DNA of 64,000 nt from assembly GCA_964397195.1 (NCBI GenBank), contig CAYNGY010000001.1, forward strand, positions 376,326-440,325. Reading direction: 5' to 3'. This document shows, piece by piece, positions 2,172 through 45,281 of this stretch. Each line of letters starts with the position of its first letter. Within the stretch, counting starts at the first letter, position 1. The notes under the pieces are model-generated. The model had not been told where the DNA came from and did not search any database. It saw only the letters and a program-made list of their open reading frames with translations. The translations under genes were made by a program, and so were the position numbers. This stretch comes from an uncultured Gammaproteobacteria bacterium. GTDB taxonomy: Bacteria; Patescibacteriota; Patescibacteriia; SBBC01; CAIJZX01.

Positions 2172-3119
2172 TCAGGCCGCTCTTGTGGTAGGAAAGAGGG
2201 CGGGAATAGTTTCCAGAATCGGGTATTTTGGTCGCCAGGACAGCGAGGTAACCAACGTGCTGTTATCACCGTAGATGTCTGGTACGTCATGAACCCGGAG
2301 GCGTGAAGAATCCTCGGTAAGGGATAGTTTTTTTCCGCTTGCCTGTATCATCGCCCCCAGAATCTCGCCCATGCTCAACGACGAGCCCGAACAGACGTTT
2401 AGGGCGCCAACAAGATTGGGGTCGAGCGCCAAACGCCAATAGGCGTCAATAACGTCATCGATCCACAAATAATCCCGCTTGGAACGCAAATTACCCACGG
2501 CGATTGTGTCTCCATCATGCGCACCGAGTATTTGGTGTAGGAAGGTCCCAATCGCGAGCGAGCGTGAAATACCCGGGCCGATGATATTAAAAGTACGAGC
2601 GACAACAACTGGAAGATGGTGAACCCGGATGAAAAAGTCAGCAAATGCGGATTGGACAACTTTCGAAATGCCGTACGGAGATACGGGGGCGAGCGAGTCA
2701 TTTTCAGAAATTGGCAATCGCGTCGGGATTCCGTACTCCGCGGCCGATCCAATCAGCAAAATCTTACGCACCGGGATTTTCTCGGTGGCCACAATCTGAC
2801 AAATATCCCAACTGACATGCGCGTTGATTGCCAAAAGCTCCGGGAGCGTCTGGTTTCCAAAAATGCCTATGAGATTGATGATGTACTGCGGTTGAATATC
2901 CAATAATGCCGCCCGTAGCTGTGATGTGTCGCGGGCATCAATCTCGCGAATAGGAAACGCCGCCGTACCCTCAGCGCCAACGCCAAAACCAAAAAAATCG
3001 TACTCCGTGGTCAGGTGATGATCGGCAATATACTTTTGAAAATGGGCACCAGAAAAACCAGTGCACCCAAATATGCAGACTCTACTCTTTTGGGAGGAAG
3101 TCGTGGCGGCGTTCATCAA
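2172..3119 (-). CDS. NAD(P)-dependent sugar epimerase/reductase (SDR family)
   Basis: It has an N-terminal Rossmann motif CIFGCTGFSGAHF and a YxxxK active site (PYGISK). It is adjacent to a nucleotidyltransferase and glycosyltransferases. Confidence 0.8.
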   Translation of the reverse strand: MMNAATTSSQKSRVCIFGCTGFSGAHFQKYIADHHLTTEYDFFGFGVGAEGTAAFPIREIDARDTSQLRAALLDIQPQYIINLIGIFGNQTLPELLAINAHVSWDICQIVATEKIPVRKILLIGSAAEYGIPTRLPISENDSLAPVSPYGISKVVQSAFADFFIRVHHLPVVVARTFNIIGPGISRSLAIGTFLHQILGAHDGDTIAVGNLRSKRDYLWIDDVIDAYWRLALDPNLVGALNVCSGSSLSMGEILGAMIQASGKKLSLTEDSSRLRVHDVPDIYGDNSTLVTSLSWRPKYPILETIPALFPTTRAA

Positions 3120-12367: not shown

Positions 12368-12396
12368 TGGACAAAAATGCCTGAAAACAGTACAAT
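12368..12396 (+). promoter_or_regulatory. Sigma70-like promoter, apparently leaderless transcript for 12405 gene
   Basis: The sequence is TGGACA, a 17-nt spacer, then TACAAT (12391-12396). The ATG at 12405 lies only about 9 nt past the -10 element. Confidence 0.5.
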
Positions 12397-12404
12397 ACAC
12401 GGGC

Positions 12405-13958
12405 ATGAAAGGGGCATCCACGATCCACACCCAGCCGAAAGTATTCCTCCTGATCAAGGCCATCGCTGTTGCCGCGGCGGTTATTTTTTTCTTGTATTTG
12501 GCCGACGCGCAACTACTGCTCGTCGCCCCGCACCGGATGCGTTTAAACCCAAATGGACGAAGCGGGTACCTGAGCGCAACATCGCTTGGTCTTGTGAGGA
12601 GCGCGGTCACGGGTCCGTACTCATGGCTGATTCGAAAAACACCACTAGTCATCACCGTTTCATTGCCACGAGTAGCGGAAAAACTCCATATTCGGATTAG
12701 CCTTCAAACCAGCGATGCGCCGCTTATAAGTTATTCGCTCGAAAGTGCCGACTCGGTACATCGGAAAGAGCAGATACTCTGGTCACAATTTTTGAACGAC
12801 TTGCAATGGGAACGGATTTCCGACGACGGACTGAGTATTTGGCAGCGGACAAAGACTGTCGCCGGGAAAAAGACGTCGATTACGCGTTACGATACGGTGA
12901 ATGATTTTCGGCGACAACCTCCGCCCGCCACGCAGATCGGAGTCGTCGCATACGACGCGTTCTCGTTTCTCCGTCCTTCGTCGTACACGCCAACCACCGC
13001 GTCACGGAAGTTCCCGGTAGCGCTGCGCGGACCGCAGTCCATTTATTTCTACGCCGGGGATGAGATGATTGACTGGGCGTTTGCAAAAACAGATCTGAAT
13101 TTCTCTGAAGACGCAGACGTGGTTCGGGTGAATCTCGTTCGTCTTGATGCGGTGACAACGCTTGGGACCGGAGTTGTGCGACATCAAGTTATTGCCGACG
13201 ACGGCGTCGTAGCGGCCACACAAACGCCCGGGAGGCCGGCACAGATCCATATCCGTGCACAGGGTCAGCCTGGCATGTACCGACTCGACCTTGATACGAC
13301 CGATGACGTGGTCTTTCAGAATATCACCACCACCCAACATGTGGTGGGGATGCACGGCAGTCTCAATATCGCCGCCGGGCCGGCCTACCGCGGGGTACCC
13401 GATGAAGCAGAATTCAGAGCCGCTACCATTCGTTTGAATAGTCCGAAGTTTACCATCATGGCCAACCATCCGGACGGAAAGCAAATCATCGAGGTTGGTG
13501 GTAAAGATATAAACATTCGACGTACGAAGGCAAAGTTCCCGGTCGCCCTGAGTCAAAATGCCGGCGTCGTAGATTTTGTGGTCGCTAAGCCAGATGTGTC
13601 CATTCAGGCCGGGGATAGCTTGCTCACGTTTAGTTCTTTTACCCTGCCGACCGGAAATATGCCGGGCGCCACAACAATTTCTCTTTACCCAACGGCAGAC
13701 GTGCAAGGGGTGAACTACCTTATTGCCCCGTATGTTCCGCTCCCCGCCGGGAGCATGGTGAGTGTTGACCAAGACATCACGACCGCTGAGTACGGGATTA
13801 TGAACAAAAAGATTCGGTTAGAACTTCAGGTCCCAGGAATTGACGAACATCAGTACGATGTAGGATTGTCCGCCGTCCGGGTTGATGTGACGCCGGGAAA
13901 GTTCCCGTGGGATAAGGTGATATCAAAGATTCGTCGTCTCTTTGGGGGGGACTCCTAA
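12405..13958 (+). CDS. Hypothetical membrane-anchored protein (single N-terminal TM, large extracytoplasmic domain)
   Basis: It is a 517-aa ORF with an N-terminal hydrophobic helix (LLIKAIAVAAAVIFFLYLA). No recognised catalytic motifs were found. It is first in an operon with a GT-C protein. Confidence 0.55.
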   Translation: MKGASTIHTQPKVFLLIKAIAVAAAVIFFLYLADAQLLLVAPHRMRLNPNGRSGYLSATSLGLVRSAVTGPYSWLIRKTPLVITVSLPRVAEKLHIRISLQTSDAPLISYSLESADSVHRKEQILWSQFLNDLQWERISDDGLSIWQRTKTVAGKKTSITRYDTVNDFRRQPPPATQIGVVAYDAFSFLRPSSYTPTTASRKFPVALRGPQSIYFYAGDEMIDWAFAKTDLNFSEDADVVRVNLVRLDAVTTLGTGVVRHQVIADDGVVAATQTPGRPAQIHIRAQGQPGMYRLDLDTTDDVVFQNITTTQHVVGMHGSLNIAAGPAYRGVPDEAEFRAATIRLNSPKFTIMANHPDGKQIIEVGGKDINIRRTKAKFPVALSQNAGVVDFVVAKPDVSIQAGDSLLTFSSFTLPTGNMPGATTISLYPTADVQGVNYLIAPYVPLPAGSMVSVDQDITTAEYGIMNKKIRLELQVPGIDEHQYDVGLSAVRVDVTPGKFPWDKVISKIRRLFGGDS

Positions 13959-40571: not shown

Positions 40572-41213
40572 ATGCGCATTCTCCTCGGTTTTCTCATCGT
40601 CCTGATCGGGCTGCAGATGTTTTTTGGCTCGGTCGGATTTCATAATTTCCCAACCATCGACATCTGGTGGCCGGTGATTTTGATTGCCATCGGCTTCCTA
40701 AGCTGGCGCTCAAATCCACGCCTCTACACCTGGCCGTTTTTCATGATCGCGATTGGGATCATCTTCCTGCTGACGAATCTGAATGTCATTCCGGGGAATG
40801 GCTGGAGCTATCTCTGGCCGGTGGTCCTGATTCTCGGTGGCGCACAGATTATGTTTGGTCGATCCGGTGGTATGCAGTCAGACGCGCACCAGGGAAACGG
40901 GCGCCATATTTTCGCGGCCTTCAGCGGCCGGAACGAAACGGTGGTTGGTCAGTTCAGCGCCGGTCAGGTCTCAGCTTGGTTTGGTGGGGTCAAATATGAT
41001 CTCCGACAGGCCGATCTCGCCGCGCAATCAACACTGGAAATTATGGCCGCCTTCGGTGGTGTCGAAATTCTCGTGCCGAGCAATGTGCAGGTGATTGTGA
41101 ATGTCACGCCGCTCTTTGGTGGGACGGATAACAAATCCCATGCGGATCCTACGAGTGCAAAAACGATTACCATTTCCGGGACCGCGCTGTTCGGAGGCGT
41201 TGATATCAAATAA
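40572..41213 (+). CDS. LiaF-like / DUF2154-type membrane protein (putative cell-envelope stress module)
   Basis: It has an N-terminal 4-TM region and a C-terminal repetitive beta-rich domain with FGGV repeats (AAFGGVEIL, PLFGGTD, ALFGGVDIK). Confidence 0.55.
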   Translation: MRILLGFLIVLIGLQMFFGSVGFHNFPTIDIWWPVILIAIGFLSWRSNPRLYTWPFFMIAIGIIFLLTNLNVIPGNGWSYLWPVVLILGGAQIMFGRSGGMQSDAHQGNGRHIFAAFSGRNETVVGQFSAGQVSAWFGGVKYDLRQADLAAQSTLEIMAAFGGVEILVPSNVQVIVNVTPLFGGTDNKSHADPTSAKTITISGTALFGGVDIK

Positions 41214-41230
41214 TTCATTCGTTGTCTCTG

Positions 41231-41262
41231 ACGCGTGGCCCGCTGGGCCGCGCGTTTTGTTG
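41231..41262 (+). terminator. Possible intrinsic terminator
   Basis: An 11-bp stem (ACGCGTGGCCC / GGGCCGCGCGT, one mismatch) with loop gct is followed by ttttgttg. Confidence 0.45.
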
Positions 41263-41315
41263 TCCACTTGCGCCCGCGTCGGGGAGTGGTATCGTAGAGA
41301 AGAAAGGAACGTGAT

Positions 41316-41825
41316 ATGAAACCATTCACACCGTATCTCGAAAAACTCCCGAAACGAGTCGTGCTGCAAATCACGACACACGGCGACCCAAACATCATCA
41401 CCGGTCCGGCCATGCAAGCATTGTACGGGACGGCCTATGGCACGAAGTTCAAAATCTACAAACCGAAAAAAATGAAAATGGACATCGGCCCGGTTTCAGC
41501 CTATTGGCCGGATGCGCATCTCAAGCCGAAGTCAAAATGGACCGGGATTTGGAATCTACAAATTTCTGATTTTGTGACCGCCAAGGATTTGATCCAAAAA
41601 AACCCGGACACGCCGGTCAAACGCGTCGCGGTACGGGCCGGAACATATGCGTGCATTTTGCATATCGGCACCTACGCGTCTGAGACGAAGACGATTAAAG
41701 CGCTCCATGAGTACATGAAAGCGGAGAAGTTAAAAATTGTTGGTGAGCACGAAGAGGTATACCTGAGTCGACCCGGTCCGAAGGCTAAAACAATTATTCG
41801 ATACGCCGTCAGCAAGAAAACATAG
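41316..41825 (+). CDS. GyrI-like small-molecule-binding domain protein
   Basis: It is about 170 aa. The C-terminus EEVYLSRPGPKAKTIIRYAV resembles GyrI/AraC effector-binding domains. Confidence 0.5.
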   Translation: MKPFTPYLEKLPKRVVLQITTHGDPNIITGPAMQALYGTAYGTKFKIYKPKKMKMDIGPVSAYWPDAHLKPKSKWTGIWNLQISDFVTAKDLIQKNPDTPVKRVAVRAGTYACILHIGTYASETKTIKALHEYMKAEKLKIVGEHEEVYLSRPGPKAKTIIRYAVSKKT

Positions 41826-41979
41826 CCTCGCCGTGATGTAGCCATCTCTTCTTCGAGCTCAGTGGAGAAGGGGACAGCGTGTGCAGGGGAAGACGTGGCG
41901 GCCGCCGAAAACGGACCAGTCTTGAGTGAATATTTCTAGTTCCTATCGATCGAGTCTGAGTCTATATTCCGACATGACG

Positions 41980-42008
41980 TTGACAAAAGCGCAATTTTCT
42001 GATACAAT
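41980..42008 (+). promoter_or_regulatory. Consensus sigma70 promoter
   Basis: The sequence is TTGACA, a 17-nt spacer (aaagcgcaattttctga), then TACAAT. It lies about 190 nt upstream of the 42200 ATG. Confidence 0.65.
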
Positions 42009-42080
42009 ACAATATGTTTAGGCCTACATTAGCCTAAAAACGCCCCTTCGGAAAACGCAAAAAGCAAAAATAAAACGCAA

Positions 42081-42184
42081 GCAGAGGGCATGGGAACTTC
42101 GTGTGGTGGTGAGATCACGACCATAGGAAGTTCCCACGCATCTTCAACGGAAATATCCATTTTCAATGGAGTGCGGCCCTCTGC
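42081..42184 (+). ncRNA. Structured 5' leader RNA (three-way junction), candidate cis-regulatory element
   Basis: An outer stem pairs GCAGAGGGC (42081-89) with GCCCTCTGC (42176-84). It encloses hairpin GGGAACTTC/GAAGTTCCC (42092-100/42127-35), which has a 26-nt loop. It also encloses a second hairpin CCATT-ttca-ATGG closed by CGCA/TGCG. It ends 15 nt before the start codon, which lacks an SD. Confidence 0.45.
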
Positions 42185-42199
42185 TTCCACTCTTTCAAT

Positions 42200-43582
42200 A
42201 TGAAACATTCAATCTGGGCTATCGCGGCTGTGGTCGCGATCTGTGCTGTGGTTCGTATACCACACGCCTCTGCGGCGACGTATAGTCGTACCTCGGAGCT
42301 TGTTATTCCCGCGACCGGAACCTCGGTCACGCTTTTTGATGGACGATTCACCGGGGGTGCATCGATCGCCGCGGCAGATATTACCGGTGATGGGGTTGAT
42401 GAATATATTGTTGGAGCCGGGCAGGGCAGTACGCCGATTGTCCAAGTCCTCGATGCGAATGGCGAGGTAATAACGTCATGGATGCCCTACAAAGAAAATT
42501 TTCGTGGCGGGGTGAATGTTGCCGCCGGCGATCTTGATGGTGACGGCCAAGCCGAGATCGTCACCGCGCCGCTGAGTGATGCCCCGGCCACTATTCGCGT
42601 CTTCAAAAATACCGGTGGAATTATTAGTTCATTTCGGGCTTTTGACAGTCGCTATCATGAAGGGGCGAACATCGCCGTGCTCGAGGCCATGCCTGATTCG
42701 CCGGGGCGAATTATTGTCAGCACCCGAGGCTTGCGAAAGAATGAGGCGCTCGTCTATGCGACGAACGGAAATTTGGTGCGCCGAATTTCCACCGACGTCG
42801 GGCGTGATCACCAAACCGGAGTGACGGTTGCCGCGGGATGGAGCGATGCCTGGCACGAACGAATCATTGTCTTCGGTGCGGGACGTGATAGTGCGCCGCG
42901 GGTTATGGTCTACGGACTAGATTCAAAAAAAGTCTTGCTGACCTGGATGGCATTTAAAGGAACGATGACCACTGGCGTCTCGATTAGCTATCGAAACAAT
43001 GTCGTGGCAGTCGCTCCGCTCGGCCTTGGTGTTCCGACTATTCGAACGTTCACCGCGATCGGGGATCGGATCGGCGATGTGGACGTCTTCGAGTCGACCT
43101 TCCGTGGCGGGGTGAACGTGGCCCTGTCTGCCGCTGGGTCTGGGGTGACGGTGGCGGCGGTCCCGAACAAAGCCAATCCAAGCCAGGCGAAAGTCAATGG
43201 CAAGAAAATCCTGGTTAACCTCAAGAAACAAGAATTATACCTCGTGGAAAATGGGACGGTCATTTCCACCCGACGCATCTCATCTGGCAAGTGGGGAACC
43301 CCGACGCCGGTCGGAACATTTAAGACGCGAAATAAAATAACGGTCGCGTATTCGAAACCATACAAGTTGTACATGGAATACTGGATGGCCATTACCGCCG
43401 ACGGGAAGTACGGGTTGCATTCGTTACCATATTGGAAAACAAAGAACGGAAAACTTTACGAAGGCGCCGCCCATATTGGAACACCCGTATCGCATGGGTG
43501 TATCCGCCAAACGGTGGCCGAGGCCAAGTCACTCTATGATTGGGCGCCGGTTGGCACCCCCGTCGTCATCAGCAAGGGGTAG
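42200..43582 (+). CDS. Secreted FG-GAP repeat protein with C-terminal L,D-transpeptidase (YkuD) domain
   Basis: It has a signal peptide MKHSIWAIAAVVAICAVV...ASA and FG-GAP/VCBS-like repeats (GDLDGDGQAEIV, DITGDGVDEYIV). The C-terminal catalytic region has SHGCIRQ (the HGC of LDTs). Confidence 0.8.
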   Translation: MKHSIWAIAAVVAICAVVRIPHASAATYSRTSELVIPATGTSVTLFDGRFTGGASIAAADITGDGVDEYIVGAGQGSTPIVQVLDANGEVITSWMPYKENFRGGVNVAAGDLDGDGQAEIVTAPLSDAPATIRVFKNTGGIISSFRAFDSRYHEGANIAVLEAMPDSPGRIIVSTRGLRKNEALVYATNGNLVRRISTDVGRDHQTGVTVAAGWSDAWHERIIVFGAGRDSAPRVMVYGLDSKKVLLTWMAFKGTMTTGVSISYRNNVVAVAPLGLGVPTIRTFTAIGDRIGDVDVFESTFRGGVNVALSAAGSGVTVAAVPNKANPSQAKVNGKKILVNLKKQELYLVENGTVISTRRISSGKWGTPTPVGTFKTRNKITVAYSKPYKLYMEYWMAITADGKYGLHSLPYWKTKNGKLYEGAAHIGTPVSHGCIRQTVAEAKSLYDWAPVGTPVVISKG

Positions 43583-43643
43583 CCTTGCCTGAGGGCGCCC
43601 TGCACGCTATACTGGGGACTCTGAATGTCTCGATATTTTTCGC

Positions 43644-45281
43644 ATGCGTCGTCGTAATGTATGGCTGGCCATGGCTGGCATCGTCCTCCTGACCGCCACT
43701 GTCGGATTCGTCGATTGGCCACACAGTTGGTCTTTAAACTGGGGGCCGCTCAAGCGTGATTTGAACTTGCGGCTTGGTTTAGACCTGCGAGGCGGGACGA
43801 GTTTGGTGTATCAGGCTGATGTGACGAATGTGCCCGATGCTGACCGCGGATCGGCCCTCGATGGCGTCCGCGATGTTATTGAGCGACGCGTGAACGCCTT
43901 TGGAGTCTCCGAGCCGGTTGTGCAGACGAGCCAGGTCGGTAGTCAGTATCGTGTCAGCGTTGACCTCGCCGGAATCACCGATATCTCCCAAGCAATTAAA
44001 TTGATCGGGGAAACGCCACTCCTTGAGTTCCGTGAAGCGAAGGGACTGAGTGATACTGAGGCCAAGACGAAGGCCGATGATGTTTTAAAGAAGGTCAACA
44101 CACCAAAAGCGGACTTTGGCGCCTTAGCCAAGGAATTTTCCGATGACGCCGGTTCGAAGTCGAACGGCGGTGACTTGGGGTGGGCGAAAAAAGGCACCTT
44201 TGTGACCGAGTTCGATGCGGCCCTCTTTGATCAGTTGAAGGACGGACAAGTGACGAGAGCGCCGATCAAGACGCAATTCGGCTACCATATCATCAAACGA
44301 ATTGCGACGCGGGAAACCGATCAAGATGGGACGAAGGTGACCGAGATTCACGCCGCCCATATTTTAATCATGACCGCGGATGGTGCGGCTGCGGCCGGGC
44401 AGTACACAACGACCGAATTAACCGGTAAGCAACTGAAGCGGGCCGATGTGAGCTTCGACCAACAAACCGGTCAGCCGGAAGTCGCCCTGACCTTTAGTAG
44501 CGAAGGGGCTAAGTTGTTCCAGGACATTACGAAGCGGAACATCGGAAAGATCCTCGCGATTTACCTTGATGGGTCGCCGATCAGTACACCCCAAGTGAAC
44601 CAGGAGATTGTTGGTGGCCAGGCCGTAATCAATGGGAACTTTACAGTTCAAGAAGTGAAGCAGTTGGCTCAGCGCCTGAATGCCGGGGCCTTACCCGTGC
44701 CGATCACCTTGATGAGCCAGCAAAATATCGGAGCCAGTCTCGGCAAAGAATCCGTCGAGCGGAGTGTTGCGGCCGGAATTATCGGTCTGGCGCTGGTTGC
44801 CCTCTTCATGATCTTAATGTACCGACTCCCGGGCGTAATCGCGGTAGTAGCGCTTGGCGTCTATTCCTTGTTAGTCTTAGCCATATTCAAGCTCTGGCCG
44901 GTCACCCTGACCTTGGCTGGGATCGCCGGGTATGTGCTGTCGATCGGTATGGCAGTTGATGCCAACATCCTCGTCTTTGAACGGACGAAAGAGGAATTGC
45001 GGGATGGCCGGCCGCTATTAAGTGCGATTGAAGAGGGCTTCCGACGTGCCTGGCTTTCGATTCGCGACTCGAATGTATCGAGTCTCATCACCTGTCTGAT
45101 TCTGATTTGGTTTGGTTCGAGTTTGATTAAAGGATTCGCCGTCACACTCGCCCTCGGTATTTTGGTTTCGATGTTCACCGCCTTGACTGTCAGTCGGACA
45201 TTCTTGCGAGTATCGGTTAGCCACTGGATGGAGAAGCATCTCTGGTTATTCGGACATGGGCTGACCAAGAAGGAATACTAG
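43644..45281 (+). CDS. secD: Protein translocase subunit SecD with embedded parvulin-type PPIase module
   Basis: SecD motifs (LGLDLRGGTSLVYQ) and the C-terminal 6-TM core are present. Between them lies ADFGALAKEFSDDAGSKSNGGDLGWAKKGTFVTEFDAALF...PIKTQFGYHIIKR, a clear PpiC/parvulin signature, followed by HAAHILI. Confidence 0.85.
   Translation: MRRRNVWLAMAGIVLLTATVGFVDWPHSWSLNWGPLKRDLNLRLGLDLRGGTSLVYQADVTNVPDADRGSALDGVRDVIERRVNAFGVSEPVVQTSQVGSQYRVSVDLAGITDISQAIKLIGETPLLEFREAKGLSDTEAKTKADDVLKKVNTPKADFGALAKEFSDDAGSKSNGGDLGWAKKGTFVTEFDAALFDQLKDGQVTRAPIKTQFGYHIIKRIATRETDQDGTKVTEIHAAHILIMTADGAAAAGQYTTTELTGKQLKRADVSFDQQTGQPEVALTFSSEGAKLFQDITKRNIGKILAIYLDGSPISTPQVNQEIVGGQAVINGNFTVQEVKQLAQRLNAGALPVPITLMSQQNIGASLGKESVERSVAAGIIGLALVALFMILMYRLPGVIAVVALGVYSLLVLAIFKLWPVTLTLAGIAGYVLSIGMAVDANILVFERTKEELRDGRPLLSAIEEGFRRAWLSIRDSNVSSLITCLILIWFGSSLIKGFAVTLALGILVSMFTALTVSRTFLRVSVSHWMEKHLWLFGHGLTKKEY

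What the first reader, a model, noticed from the sequence alone, without database searches (positions are those of the whole stretch)
41980..42199. Consensus promoter plus 104-nt three-way-junction leader RNA in front of a secreted FG-GAP/L,D-transpeptidase gene
A textbook TTGACA-17-TACAAT promoter is followed by an untranslated region of about 185 nt. Within it, GCAGAGGGC (42081-89) pairs with GCCCTCTGC (42176-84) around two internal hairpins, GGGAACTTC/GAAGTTCCC and CCATT/ATGG. The structure ends 15 nt before a start codon that has no Shine-Dalgarno. The gene encodes a signal-peptide protein combining FG-GAP repeats with a YkuD L,D-transpeptidase domain, which is a cell-wall remodelling function. 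In other phyla cell-wall remodelling genes are often under second-messenger riboswitch control, for example the c-di-AMP ydaO class. I could not confirm a known class by eye.
Basis: seen in the sequence. Interest (0 to 1): 0.5.

Follow-up and report, generated by a model that had tools for sequence, protein, structure and literature searches.

The report
Conserved structured leader RNA before transpeptidase
A strong promoter drives a roughly 185-base untranslated leader whose five helices are kept by compensatory mutations in front of the same cell-wall cross-linking gene in eleven related uncultured Patescibacteria; it matches no catalogued RNA family and does not look like a small-molecule riboswitch.

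Summary
TTGACA-17-(TG)n-TACAAT at 41980-42008 is followed by about 185 nt of non-coding RNA. It ends 13 nt before the ATG at 42200 of a signal-peptide FG-GAP/YkuD L,D-transpeptidase.

The core, 42079-42186, is a three-way junction (-65.6 kcal/mol, z = -10). The same promoter and leader precede the orthologous gene in 10 of 12 relatives examined, 11 distinct sequences at 45-72% protein identity.

Covariation is strong: 95% of cells paired, and 39 of 45 pairs changed on both sides, against 8-12 in slid controls.

The layout is a 5'-terminal hairpin, a small hairpin, an A-rich linker, the junction P1/P2/P3, then a C/U-rich tail. P2 is always 20-21 layers long.

Rfam 15 gives no hit for the window or for 10 homologues, including ydaO and c-di-GMP.

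Only three unpaired positions inside the junction are conserved. There is no alternative fold, no start-codon sequestration and no conserved ORF.

The genome does not use Shine-Dalgarno sequences at all, so "no SD" is not special.

Best reading: a new, lineage-restricted cis-acting mRNA leader that gives stability, helps SD-independent translation, or is bound by a protein. It is probably not a metabolite riboswitch. Its function is inferred.

The parts
41980..41985 (+). -35 hexamer TTGACA
   Evidence: TTGACA (TTGACG in L154) lies at the same place in all 11 orthologous loci.
42000..42008 (+). Extended -10: TG-a-TACAAT, with the -10 hexamer at 42003-42008
   Evidence: 11 of 12, TG present. The conserved form is T-rich spacer + TGcTAnAAT/TAAACT in the relatives.
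42017..42038 (+). H0: 5'-terminal hairpin UUUAGGC / GCCUAAA with an 8-nt loop. It starts about 1-3 nt after the predicted transcription start.
   Evidence: Every relative has a hairpin here with a different sequence, always starting 3-8 nt after the -10 box.
42041..42057 (+). H1: small hairpin around CCUUCGG (a UUCG-type loop)
   Evidence: The stem covaries, GCGUU/AACGC versus GUGUU/AACAC (helix 1: 2 of 3 pairs changed on both sides).
42059..42075 (+). Conserved A-rich single-stranded linker AAAAAGCAAAAAUAAAA
   Evidence: alignments. It occurs once in the window. It is unpaired in the folds.
42079..42089 (+). P1 5' arm AAGCAGAGGGC (purine-rich)
   Evidence: I5, 11 nt, 100% complementary. helix 2: 7 of 11 pairs changed on both sides, 97.5% paired.
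42091..42136 (+). P2 long hairpin: 10 bp, G.G, 6 bp, G.G, 3 bp, loop AGAU. It has 21 layers.
   Evidence: helix 3: 17 of 18 pairs changed on both sides. The length is 20-21 layers in all 11 sequences. The G.G mismatch is conserved.
42137..42175 (+). P3 hairpin: CGCA/UGCG, bulged U, CUUCA/UGGAG, a 2x2 loop, GGAAAU/AUUUUC, loop AUCC
   Evidence: helices 4-5: 13 of 13 pairs changed on both sides. P3 is the most variable arm.
42176..42186 (+). P1 3' arm GCCCUCUGCUU (pyrimidine-rich)
42187..42199 (+). C/U-rich single-stranded tail CCACUCUUUCAAU, with no SD. It is the probable translation-initiation region.
   Evidence: A CCAC motif follows P1 in 9 of 11 sequences. A U-rich run before the start codon is also seen in the conserved SecD leaders. 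The tail is mostly unpaired in partition-function folds.
42200..43582 (+). Gene for a secreted FG-GAP + YkuD L,D-transpeptidase (460 aa)

Best explanation
This is the 5' untranslated leader of the L,D-transpeptidase mRNA.

A near-consensus sigma-70-type promoter starts transcription at about 42014-42016. The first roughly 185 nt fold into a fixed architecture:
- a hairpin at the very 5' end (H0);
- a small hairpin (H1);
- a single-stranded A-rich linker;
- a compact three-way junction, made of P1, a two-turn arm P2 and a variable arm P3;
- a single-stranded C/U-rich tail that runs into the start codon.

Shown: the RNA structure is under selection on the + strand, it is tied to this gene, and it is a family not yet catalogued.

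Inferred: it acts in cis after transcription and is not a metabolite sensor. The 5'-terminal hairpin and the very stable, self-contained junction would protect a highly expressed mRNA from 5'-end-dependent decay. They would also lock up the long leader, so that the A-rich and U/C-rich single strands held together at the base of P1 stay open as the landing site for ribosomes. This organism does not use Shine-Dalgarno pairing.

The fixed length of P2, its conserved purine-purine mismatches and the bulged U in P3 make it likely that a protein (a regulator, a double-strand RNase or the ribosome itself) reads the shape.
For: Structure:
- Real in the window: z = -10.
- Eight homologous cores fold on their own into the same junction, z = -5.8 to -9.5.

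Conservation:
- Promoter plus leader are found before the orthologue in 10 of 12 relatives looked up.

Covariation over 11 sequences:
- 95.1% of cells are paired.
- 39 of 45 pairs changed on both sides, against 8-12 when partners are slid.
- 0 of 500 shuffles reach this.

Strand: 34 G-U cells against 9 A-C cells.

Non-coding: stops in all frames in several homologues.

Tied to the gene:
- Single copy in the window with filters off.
- None in 30 distant-LDT loci or in viral contigs.
- The metagenome pattern scan found it only before this gene.

H0 starts 3-8 nt after the -10 box in every sequence.

The start codon and tail are mostly unpaired.

The genome lacks SD, and its other strong promoters have leaders of 30 nt or less.

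Against an aptamer: 3 conserved unpaired positions, and junction strands of 0-5 nt.
Against: No transcript data exist. The transcription start, the read-through into the gene and the absence of processing are all predicted.

A pure stabiliser would not obviously need a three-way junction, an arm of fixed length, or the strongly conserved sequences of P1, the linker and the tail.

The distance from P1 to the start codon varies from 11 to 30 nt. This argues against a rigid docking geometry on the ribosome.

Two orthologues do without the leader: L155, where the gene sits 37 nt after secA, and L085, with a 66-nt spacer.

Only 11 sequences from one clade were available, and the counted alignment was fitted to the model.
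Confidence: 0.45

Rival explanations
1. The leader is a regulatory switch read by a protein or processed by a ribonuclease. The two-turn P2 helix with its mismatches would be a site for an RNase III-type enzyme or an RNA-binding repressor. Alternatively, P1 plus the N-CCAC tail would be an RNase P-like substrate. Cleavage or binding would set the translation or decay rate of the transpeptidase mRNA.
For: - P2 has 20-21 layers in all 11 sequences although its sequence changes almost completely.
- A G.G mismatch at layer 11, a purine-purine mismatch 3 bp below the loop and a bulged U in P3 are conserved.
- P1, the linker and the tail are conserved in sequence, with CCAC 0-4 nt after an 11-12 bp P1 in 9 of 11 sequences.
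Against: - No binding protein or cleavage site is known.
- No candidate regulator gene is conserved next to the element. The genes between secA and the promoter differ in every genome.
- ARAGORN finds nothing tRNA-like.
- This reading overlaps with the best explanation rather than excluding it.
Confidence: 0.27
2. It is a riboswitch of a new class, for example for a cell-wall precursor or a second messenger. The three-way junction would be the aptamer.
For: - The position, a long structured 5' UTR before a cell-wall gene, fits.
- There is strong covariation.
- Several known aptamers are three-way junctions (established knowledge).
Against: - No Rfam hit.
- Junction strands vary from 0 to 5 nt, and only three unpaired positions are conserved.
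- The helices are long and nearly perfect.
- No conserved alternative pairing, terminator or start-codon masking was found.
- Linker-to-tail pairing is no better than in shuffles.
- Alternative pairings with the P1 arm are broken in L154, where P1 covaried.
Confidence: 0.07
3. It is an independent small RNA of about 190 nt, or a 5'-UTR-derived sRNA, that acts in trans. Its link to the downstream gene would be only positional.
For: - It has its own consensus promoter.
- The fold is very stable.
- A U-rich stretch follows P1.
Against: - No intrinsic terminator is present. The U run is 8 or more nt from the stem, and P1 closes a junction rather than a hairpin.
- There is no room and no -10 box for a separate promoter in the 11-30 nt before the start codon.
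- The element is lost exactly where the gene is fused behind secA or has a short promoter.
Confidence: 0.08
4. There is no functional RNA. The features would be chance inverted repeats, DNA-level palindromes such as an operator, or a small ORF on either strand.
For: The window has a 59-codon ORF on the minus strand at 42029-42208, and the DNA is palindromic.
Against: - z = -10.
- Compensatory changes occur in 39 of 45 pairs.
- The G-U excess marks the + strand.
- Stops occur in all six frames in L081, L084 and L148.
- Sequences differ while the shape is kept.
Confidence: 0.02

Closest known systems
   Same: Both are long structured 5' UTRs in front of a cell-wall-related gene.
   Different: - The model gives no match in the window or in 10 homologues.
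- ydaO is a pseudo-symmetric double junction with many invariant unpaired nucleotides (established knowledge).
- This element is a single junction with almost none.
5'-UTR stabilisers with a 5'-terminal stem-loop (E. coli ompA leader, B. subtilis aprE leader, long leaders of S-layer genes); from established knowledge
   Same: - A strong promoter.
- A hairpin within a few nucleotides of the predicted 5' end.
- A long structured leader before a secreted envelope protein.
- The start region is left open.
   Different: - Those leaders are simple hairpins with an SD.
- This one adds a covarying three-way junction with an arm of fixed length, plus conserved flanking single strands, in an organism without SD.
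- No half-life data exist for it.
Structured SD-less or protein-read leaders (E. coli rpsA leader; three-way-junction rpsO/S15 leaders; RNase III-cleaved rnc and pnp leaders); from established knowledge
   Same: - Shape, not sequence, is conserved.
- Non-canonical pairs lie in long helices.
- There is a three-way junction, and translation proceeds without an SD.
   Different: - The downstream gene is not a ribosomal protein or an RNase.
- No autoregulatory logic is evident.
- Rfam models give no similarity.
Orphan RNA motifs upstream of peptidoglycan-related genes found by comparative genomics (for example the lysM-TM7 and NLPC_P60 motifs); recalled from memory as being in Rfam
   Same: - A candidate cis-regulatory RNA defined only by covariation.
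- It is associated with a cell-wall enzyme gene, in one case in the same superphylum.
   Different: - No Rfam family, which would include these motifs if they are catalogued there, matches.
- The gene family and the architecture are different.

Membership tests
c-di-AMP riboswitch (ydaO-yuaA) | Match to the Rfam covariance model | tested here: not met
   There is no hit at gathering score in the 64-kb window, none at E <= 10 in 41830-42300, and none at E <= 5 in 10 homologous loci.
c-di-AMP riboswitch (ydaO-yuaA) | Pseudo-two-fold architecture with many invariant unpaired nucleotides | tested here: not met
   The element is a single three-way junction, and only 3 unpaired columns are conserved.
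c-di-AMP riboswitch (ydaO-yuaA) | Binds c-di-AMP | not testable with these tools
   This needs in-line probing or ITC.
c-di-GMP-I / c-di-GMP-II riboswitches | Match to the Rfam covariance models | tested here: not met
   Searches gave no hit.
Metabolite riboswitch (generic) | Conserved unpaired nucleotides forming a pocket in a junction or in loops | tested here: not met
   Junction strands are 0-5 nt long and not conserved. The only conserved unpaired positions are the G.G mismatch in P2 and one bulged U.
Metabolite riboswitch (generic) | An expression platform: a mutually exclusive terminator, or masking of the start site | tested here: not met
   - No terminator is present.
- The start codon is mostly open.
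- No further conserved helix was found.
- Linker-to-tail pairing equals that of shuffles.
Conserved structured cis-acting mRNA leader (RNA motif) | Base pairs maintained by compensatory changes across orthologous upstream regions | tested here: met
   39 of 45 pairs changed on both sides and 95.1% of cells are paired. Controls gave 0 of 500 shuffles and 8-12 for slid partners. The sequences also fold independently into the same structure.
Conserved structured cis-acting mRNA leader (RNA motif) | Fixed position and orientation relative to one gene family, between the promoter and the start codon | tested here: met
   All 11 instances lie between TTGAC[A/G]-17-TAnAAT/TAAACT and the transpeptidase start codon. 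None was found elsewhere.
5'-terminal stem-loop mRNA stabiliser | A hairpin within a few nucleotides of the transcript's 5' end | tested here: inconclusive
   H0 starts 3-8 nt after the -10 box in all sequences, but the transcription start is predicted, not mapped.
5'-terminal stem-loop mRNA stabiliser | Increases mRNA half-life | not testable with these tools
   This needs decay assays.
Intrinsic terminator / transcription attenuator | A G+C-rich hairpin followed directly by a U run | tested here: not met
   The scan finds no + strand terminator in 41980-42199. The U run lies 8 or more nt after P1.
tRNA / tmRNA-like element | Recognised by ARAGORN, or has a T-arm | tested here: not met
   ARAGORN finds no gene in the window, and there are no Rfam tRNA or tmRNA hits.

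The most novel reading that the evidence does not exclude
The element could be a structure-based ribosome-recruiting or regulator-read control RNA, functionally IRES-like or an undiscovered riboswitch class. It would govern the main peptidoglycan L,D-cross-linking enzyme in a bacterial lineage that has given up Shine-Dalgarno initiation and mostly uses leaderless mRNAs. In that reading, the three-way junction and its flanking A-rich and C/U-rich strands, not base pairing to 16S rRNA, bring the ribosome to an internal start codon or gate its access.
Probability: 0.12. Interest if true: 0.8.

Novelty: new member of a known kind. Interest (0 to 1): 0.45.

Why it matters
Hardly any regulatory RNAs are known in the Candidate Phyla Radiation. 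How these reduced, uncultured bacteria control cell-wall synthesis is also unknown, as is how they translate leadered mRNAs without Shine-Dalgarno pairing.

This is a clean, well-covarying RNA of about 165-190 nt with a defined gene association. It could be synthesised and tested in vitro for ribosome binding, RNase cleavage and ligand probing.

If it is only an mRNA stabiliser it is a modest addition to the catalogue. If it recruits ribosomes or senses a signal, it would be a new mechanism in a poorly understood third of bacterial diversity.

Tried and rejected
1. Known RNA families. Rfam was run at gathering score on the whole window, at E <= 10 on the region, and at E <= 5 on 10 homologous loci. 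Only chance snoRNA and miRNA fragments appeared.

2. Repeat or mobile element. The window holds no second copy by pattern, by CM with default filters, or by CM with filters off.

3. Protein-based scan of GTDB genomes. The patterns were too generic.

4. Metagenome pattern scan. Of 68 hits only 5 were true, and all lay before the same gene. The rest were low-complexity noise. The viral scan gave 2 hits, both noise.

5. A P0 helix between the A-rich linker and the U-rich tail, masking the initiation region. Some minimum-energy folds predict it. The summed duplex energy, -35.5, equals that of composition-matched shuffles, -35.6 +/- 5.7, so this was rejected.

6. Alternative pairing of the H1 loop or the tail with the P1 5' arm. 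This is possible by composition but is broken in L154, where P1 covaried to GAGCC/GGCUC, so it was rejected.

7. Loop-loop kissing between P2 and P3. By inspection it is complementary in the window and in L077 only, so it is not conserved.

8. Coding potential. A 37-codon + strand ORF (42090-42203) and a 59-codon minus-strand ORF are interrupted in relatives.

9. The MAFFT alignment of all leaders mis-aligned P2 and P3. It was replaced by a CM-guided alignment.

10. Literature searches for a described motif found nothing relevant.

Full report
**What is in the sequence**

TTGACA (41980-85), a 17-nt spacer ending in TG-a, and TACAAT (42003-08) form an 11-of-12 sigma-70-type promoter with an extended -10. 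The next gene starts with the ATG at 42200. No in-frame upstream start exists.

The product is 460 aa long. It has an evident signal peptide (by eye), FG-GAP repeats and a YkuD L,D-transpeptidase domain, E = 8e-24.

Between promoter and gene lie about 185 nt with no conserved reading frame. The segment 42078-42187 folds into a three-way junction of -65.6 kcal/mol. Dinucleotide shuffles give -29.9 +/- 3.6, so z = -10. The full leader gives z = -8.

P3 (42137-42175) pairs CGCA/UGCG, CUUCA/UGGAG and GGAAAU/AUUUUC.

**Organism and context**

The transpeptidase has several hundred homologues (639 at E <= 0.001). Where they carry a name, it is Patescibacteria or Candidatus Kerfeldbacteria.

The gene order secA - variable genes - transpeptidase - secD - secF - sigma factor is conserved.

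The window's genes do not use Shine-Dalgarno sequences. Only 4 of 46 long ORFs have an SD-like 4-mer at -4 to -20, against a 12% background. Other strong promoters in the window sit 6-30 nt before their start codons. So "no SD" is normal here, and a 185-nt leader is the exception.

secD has its own conserved promoter, TTGCCn-17-TATACT, directly after the transpeptidase stop codon. Its short leader is U-rich before the ATG. The leader therefore serves primarily the transpeptidase gene. A U-rich stretch before the start codon also seems to be the usual initiation context in this clade.

**Relatives**

I looked up the contigs of 12 homologous proteins (36-72% identity). Ten of them carry the promoter and leader at the same place:
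- L076, L077, L078, L079, L081, L082, L084, L154 and L156, plus the window's own contig L075;
- L148, which came from the metagenome pattern scan.

This gives 11 distinct sequences. Two orthologues lack the leader. In L155 the gene follows secA after 37 nt. In L085, at 36% identity, the spacer is 66 nt with a plain promoter.

A covariance model built from four close sequences found the more distant ones at E = 1e-9 to 1e-14. A second model built from all 11 sequences found:
- nothing else in the window, even with filters off;
- nothing in 30 loci of distant FG-GAP/YkuD genes;

In its own search the only other hits were low-complexity sequences that my own search pattern had selected.

**Anatomy common to all 11 sequences**

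1. TTGAC[A/G], a 17-nt T-rich spacer, then TGcTAnAAT (TAAACT in three).
2. H0, a hairpin of 7-10 bp that starts 3-8 nt after the -10 box, that is, at the predicted 5' end. Its sequence differs in every lineage.
3. H1, a small hairpin around UUCCUUCGGAAAC.
4. A conserved A-rich linker (AAAAAGAAAAACAAAAG).
5. P1, 11-14 bp, purine-rich on the 5' side (GGGGAGAGGG) and pyrimidine-rich on the 3' side.
6. P2, always 20-21 layers long, with a conserved G.G mismatch (or a 2x2 loop) near layer 11 and a purine-purine mismatch 3 bp below a loop that is 3-5 nt in ten of the eleven (13 nt in L156).
7. P3, of variable length and sequence, usually with a bulged U after the third or fourth pair.
8. A C/U-rich tail, typically N-CCAC-CUUUU, 11-30 nt long, which runs into the start codon.

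The junction strands are 0-5 nt long and are not conserved.

**Is the structure selected?**

On the model-guided alignment of 11 sequences, 95.1% of 474 cells form standard pairs, and 39 of 45 pairs show changes on both sides. When the 3' partners are slid by 1-3 columns, the figures are 8-12 pairs and 42-44% paired. None of 500 column shuffles reaches the observed values.

Examples in P1:
- GAGGGC/GCCCUC becomes GAGAGC/GCUCUC in L077.
- It becomes GAGCCC/GGGCUC in L154.
- GGGAGA/UCUCCC becomes GACAGA/UCUGUC in L156.

The alignment was fitted to the model, which favours the structure. However, each core also folds by itself into the same junction, with z = -5.8 to -9.5.

G-U cells outnumber A-C cells 34 to 9, so the + strand is the functional one. 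Several homologues have stop codons in all six frames, and the + strand ORF visible in the window is interrupted in L076.

**What it is not**

No Rfam 15 family matches. This includes ydaO, the c-di-GMP classes, T-box, tRNA, tmRNA, SRP, 6S, 5S and the self-cleaving ribozymes.

Inside the junction only three unpaired columns are conserved: the G.G mismatch and the bulged U.

There is no terminator. The start codon and tail are mostly unpaired in partition-function folds. A search of all column pairs found no further conserved helix.

Two candidate switches were tested and rejected:
- Pairing of the A-rich linker with the U-rich tail is no stronger than in composition-matched shuffles, -35.5 against -35.6 +/- 5.7 kcal/mol summed.
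- Pairing of the H1 loop or the tail with the P1 5' arm is lost in L154, where P1 itself covaried.

This is not what a metabolite aptamer with an expression platform looks like.

**How it most likely works (inferred)**

The near-consensus promoter, conserved in all members, points to high expression.

A hairpin at the very 5' end is the classical protection against 5'-end-dependent decay. This is established knowledge from the ompA and aprE leaders.

The junction is extremely stable and self-contained. It would prevent the long leader from interfering with the initiation region. It would also bring the conserved A-rich linker and the C/U-rich tail together at the foot of P1, next to an accessible start codon. 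In an SD-less organism these single strands are the plausible ribosome (S1-type) landing site.

Three features suggest that a protein reads the shape: the constant two-turn length of P2, its conserved non-canonical pairs, and the conserved sequence of P1 and its flanks.

I therefore rank the readings as follows:
- a constitutive or protein-read cis-acting stability and translation leader, 0.45;
- a dedicated protein- or RNase-controlled switch, 0.27;
- an independent sRNA, 0.08;
- a new riboswitch, 0.07;
- an artefact, 0.02.

None of this is shown experimentally.

**Comparison and novelty**

Functionally, the element resembles 5'-UTR stabilisers and structured SD-less leaders. It is not a member of any tested family.

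It is a new RNA motif of a familiar kind, an orphan cis-acting leader. It is restricted to one Kerfeldbacteria-like clade of Patescibacteria and tied to an FG-GAP/YkuD transpeptidase.

Literature searches found no description of it.

Interest is moderate. The covariation is unusually clean, and the host lineage is poorly understood. But orphan motifs are common, the clade is narrow, and the function is unknown.

Noticed in passing
window 43644-45281 (also L077, L082, L084, L154-L156): SecD carries a parvulin/PpiC-type peptidyl-prolyl isomerase domain (Rotamase_3, residues about 128-219, E = 1e-24) inserted in its periplasmic P1 region. The fusion is conserved in all orthologous loci.
   Followed up: no
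window 43585-43613: secD has its own promoter, TTGCCT-17-TATACT, starting 3 nt after the transpeptidase stop codon. It is conserved as TTGCC/TTGTC-17-TATACT in most of the related loci checked (TACACT in L155, TATAGT in L085). A leader of about 30 nt follows, U-rich before the ATG and without an SD.
   Followed up: partly
whole window (for example 12368-12405 +, 25330-25276 -, 4862-4809 -): The genome essentially lacks Shine-Dalgarno motifs: 4 of 46 ORFs have one, against a 12% background. Several -10 boxes lie only about 7-10 nt before the start codon, which implies many leaderless or very short-leader mRNAs.
   Followed up: partly
window 40572-41825, and the equivalent spacers in L077, L081, L082, L084, L085, L156: The genes between secA and the transpeptidase promoter differ in every genome. 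Here they are LiaF-like and GyrI-like. Elsewhere they are acetyltransferase, NUDIX, CYTH, DUF3800 and DUF559. This is a variable slot inside otherwise fixed synteny.
   Followed up: no
window 42014-42037: An ATG lies 6 nt after the -10 box and would open a 7-codon ORF (MFRPTLA*) at the predicted 5' end, inside H0. It could be translated as a leaderless mini-ORF. It is present in L076, L079 (3 codons) and L081 (long), but absent from L077, L078, L082 and L084.
   Followed up: partly
window 42187-42190, and the equivalent position in 9 of 11 relatives: CCAC follows the 11-12 bp P1 helix after 0-4 nt. This resembles an acceptor-type helix plus N-CCA, and so a possible RNase P-type substrate. There is no T-arm and ARAGORN is negative, so this is speculative.
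   Followed up: partly
L082 4447-4723 and L156 4417-4725: Two relatives carry an insertion of about 210-250 nt between the transpeptidase gene and secD. It is bounded by the inverted repeat GTCATGACCCCGTTAGAA...TTCTAACGGGG and looks like a miniature mobile element. In L156 a 54-codon ORF is called there.
   Followed up: no
L082 3001-3033: The deposited gene call for the L082/L083 transpeptidase starts at a TTG inside the 3' arm of P1. Alignment with the other leaders indicates that the true start is the TTG at 3031.
   Followed up: yes
L149 1069-1231 (-): This is a low-coverage metagenome contig. It contains the first two-thirds of a leader and then unrelated G+C-rich DNA, so it is probably an assembly chimera. 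It was excluded from the alignment.
   Followed up: partly
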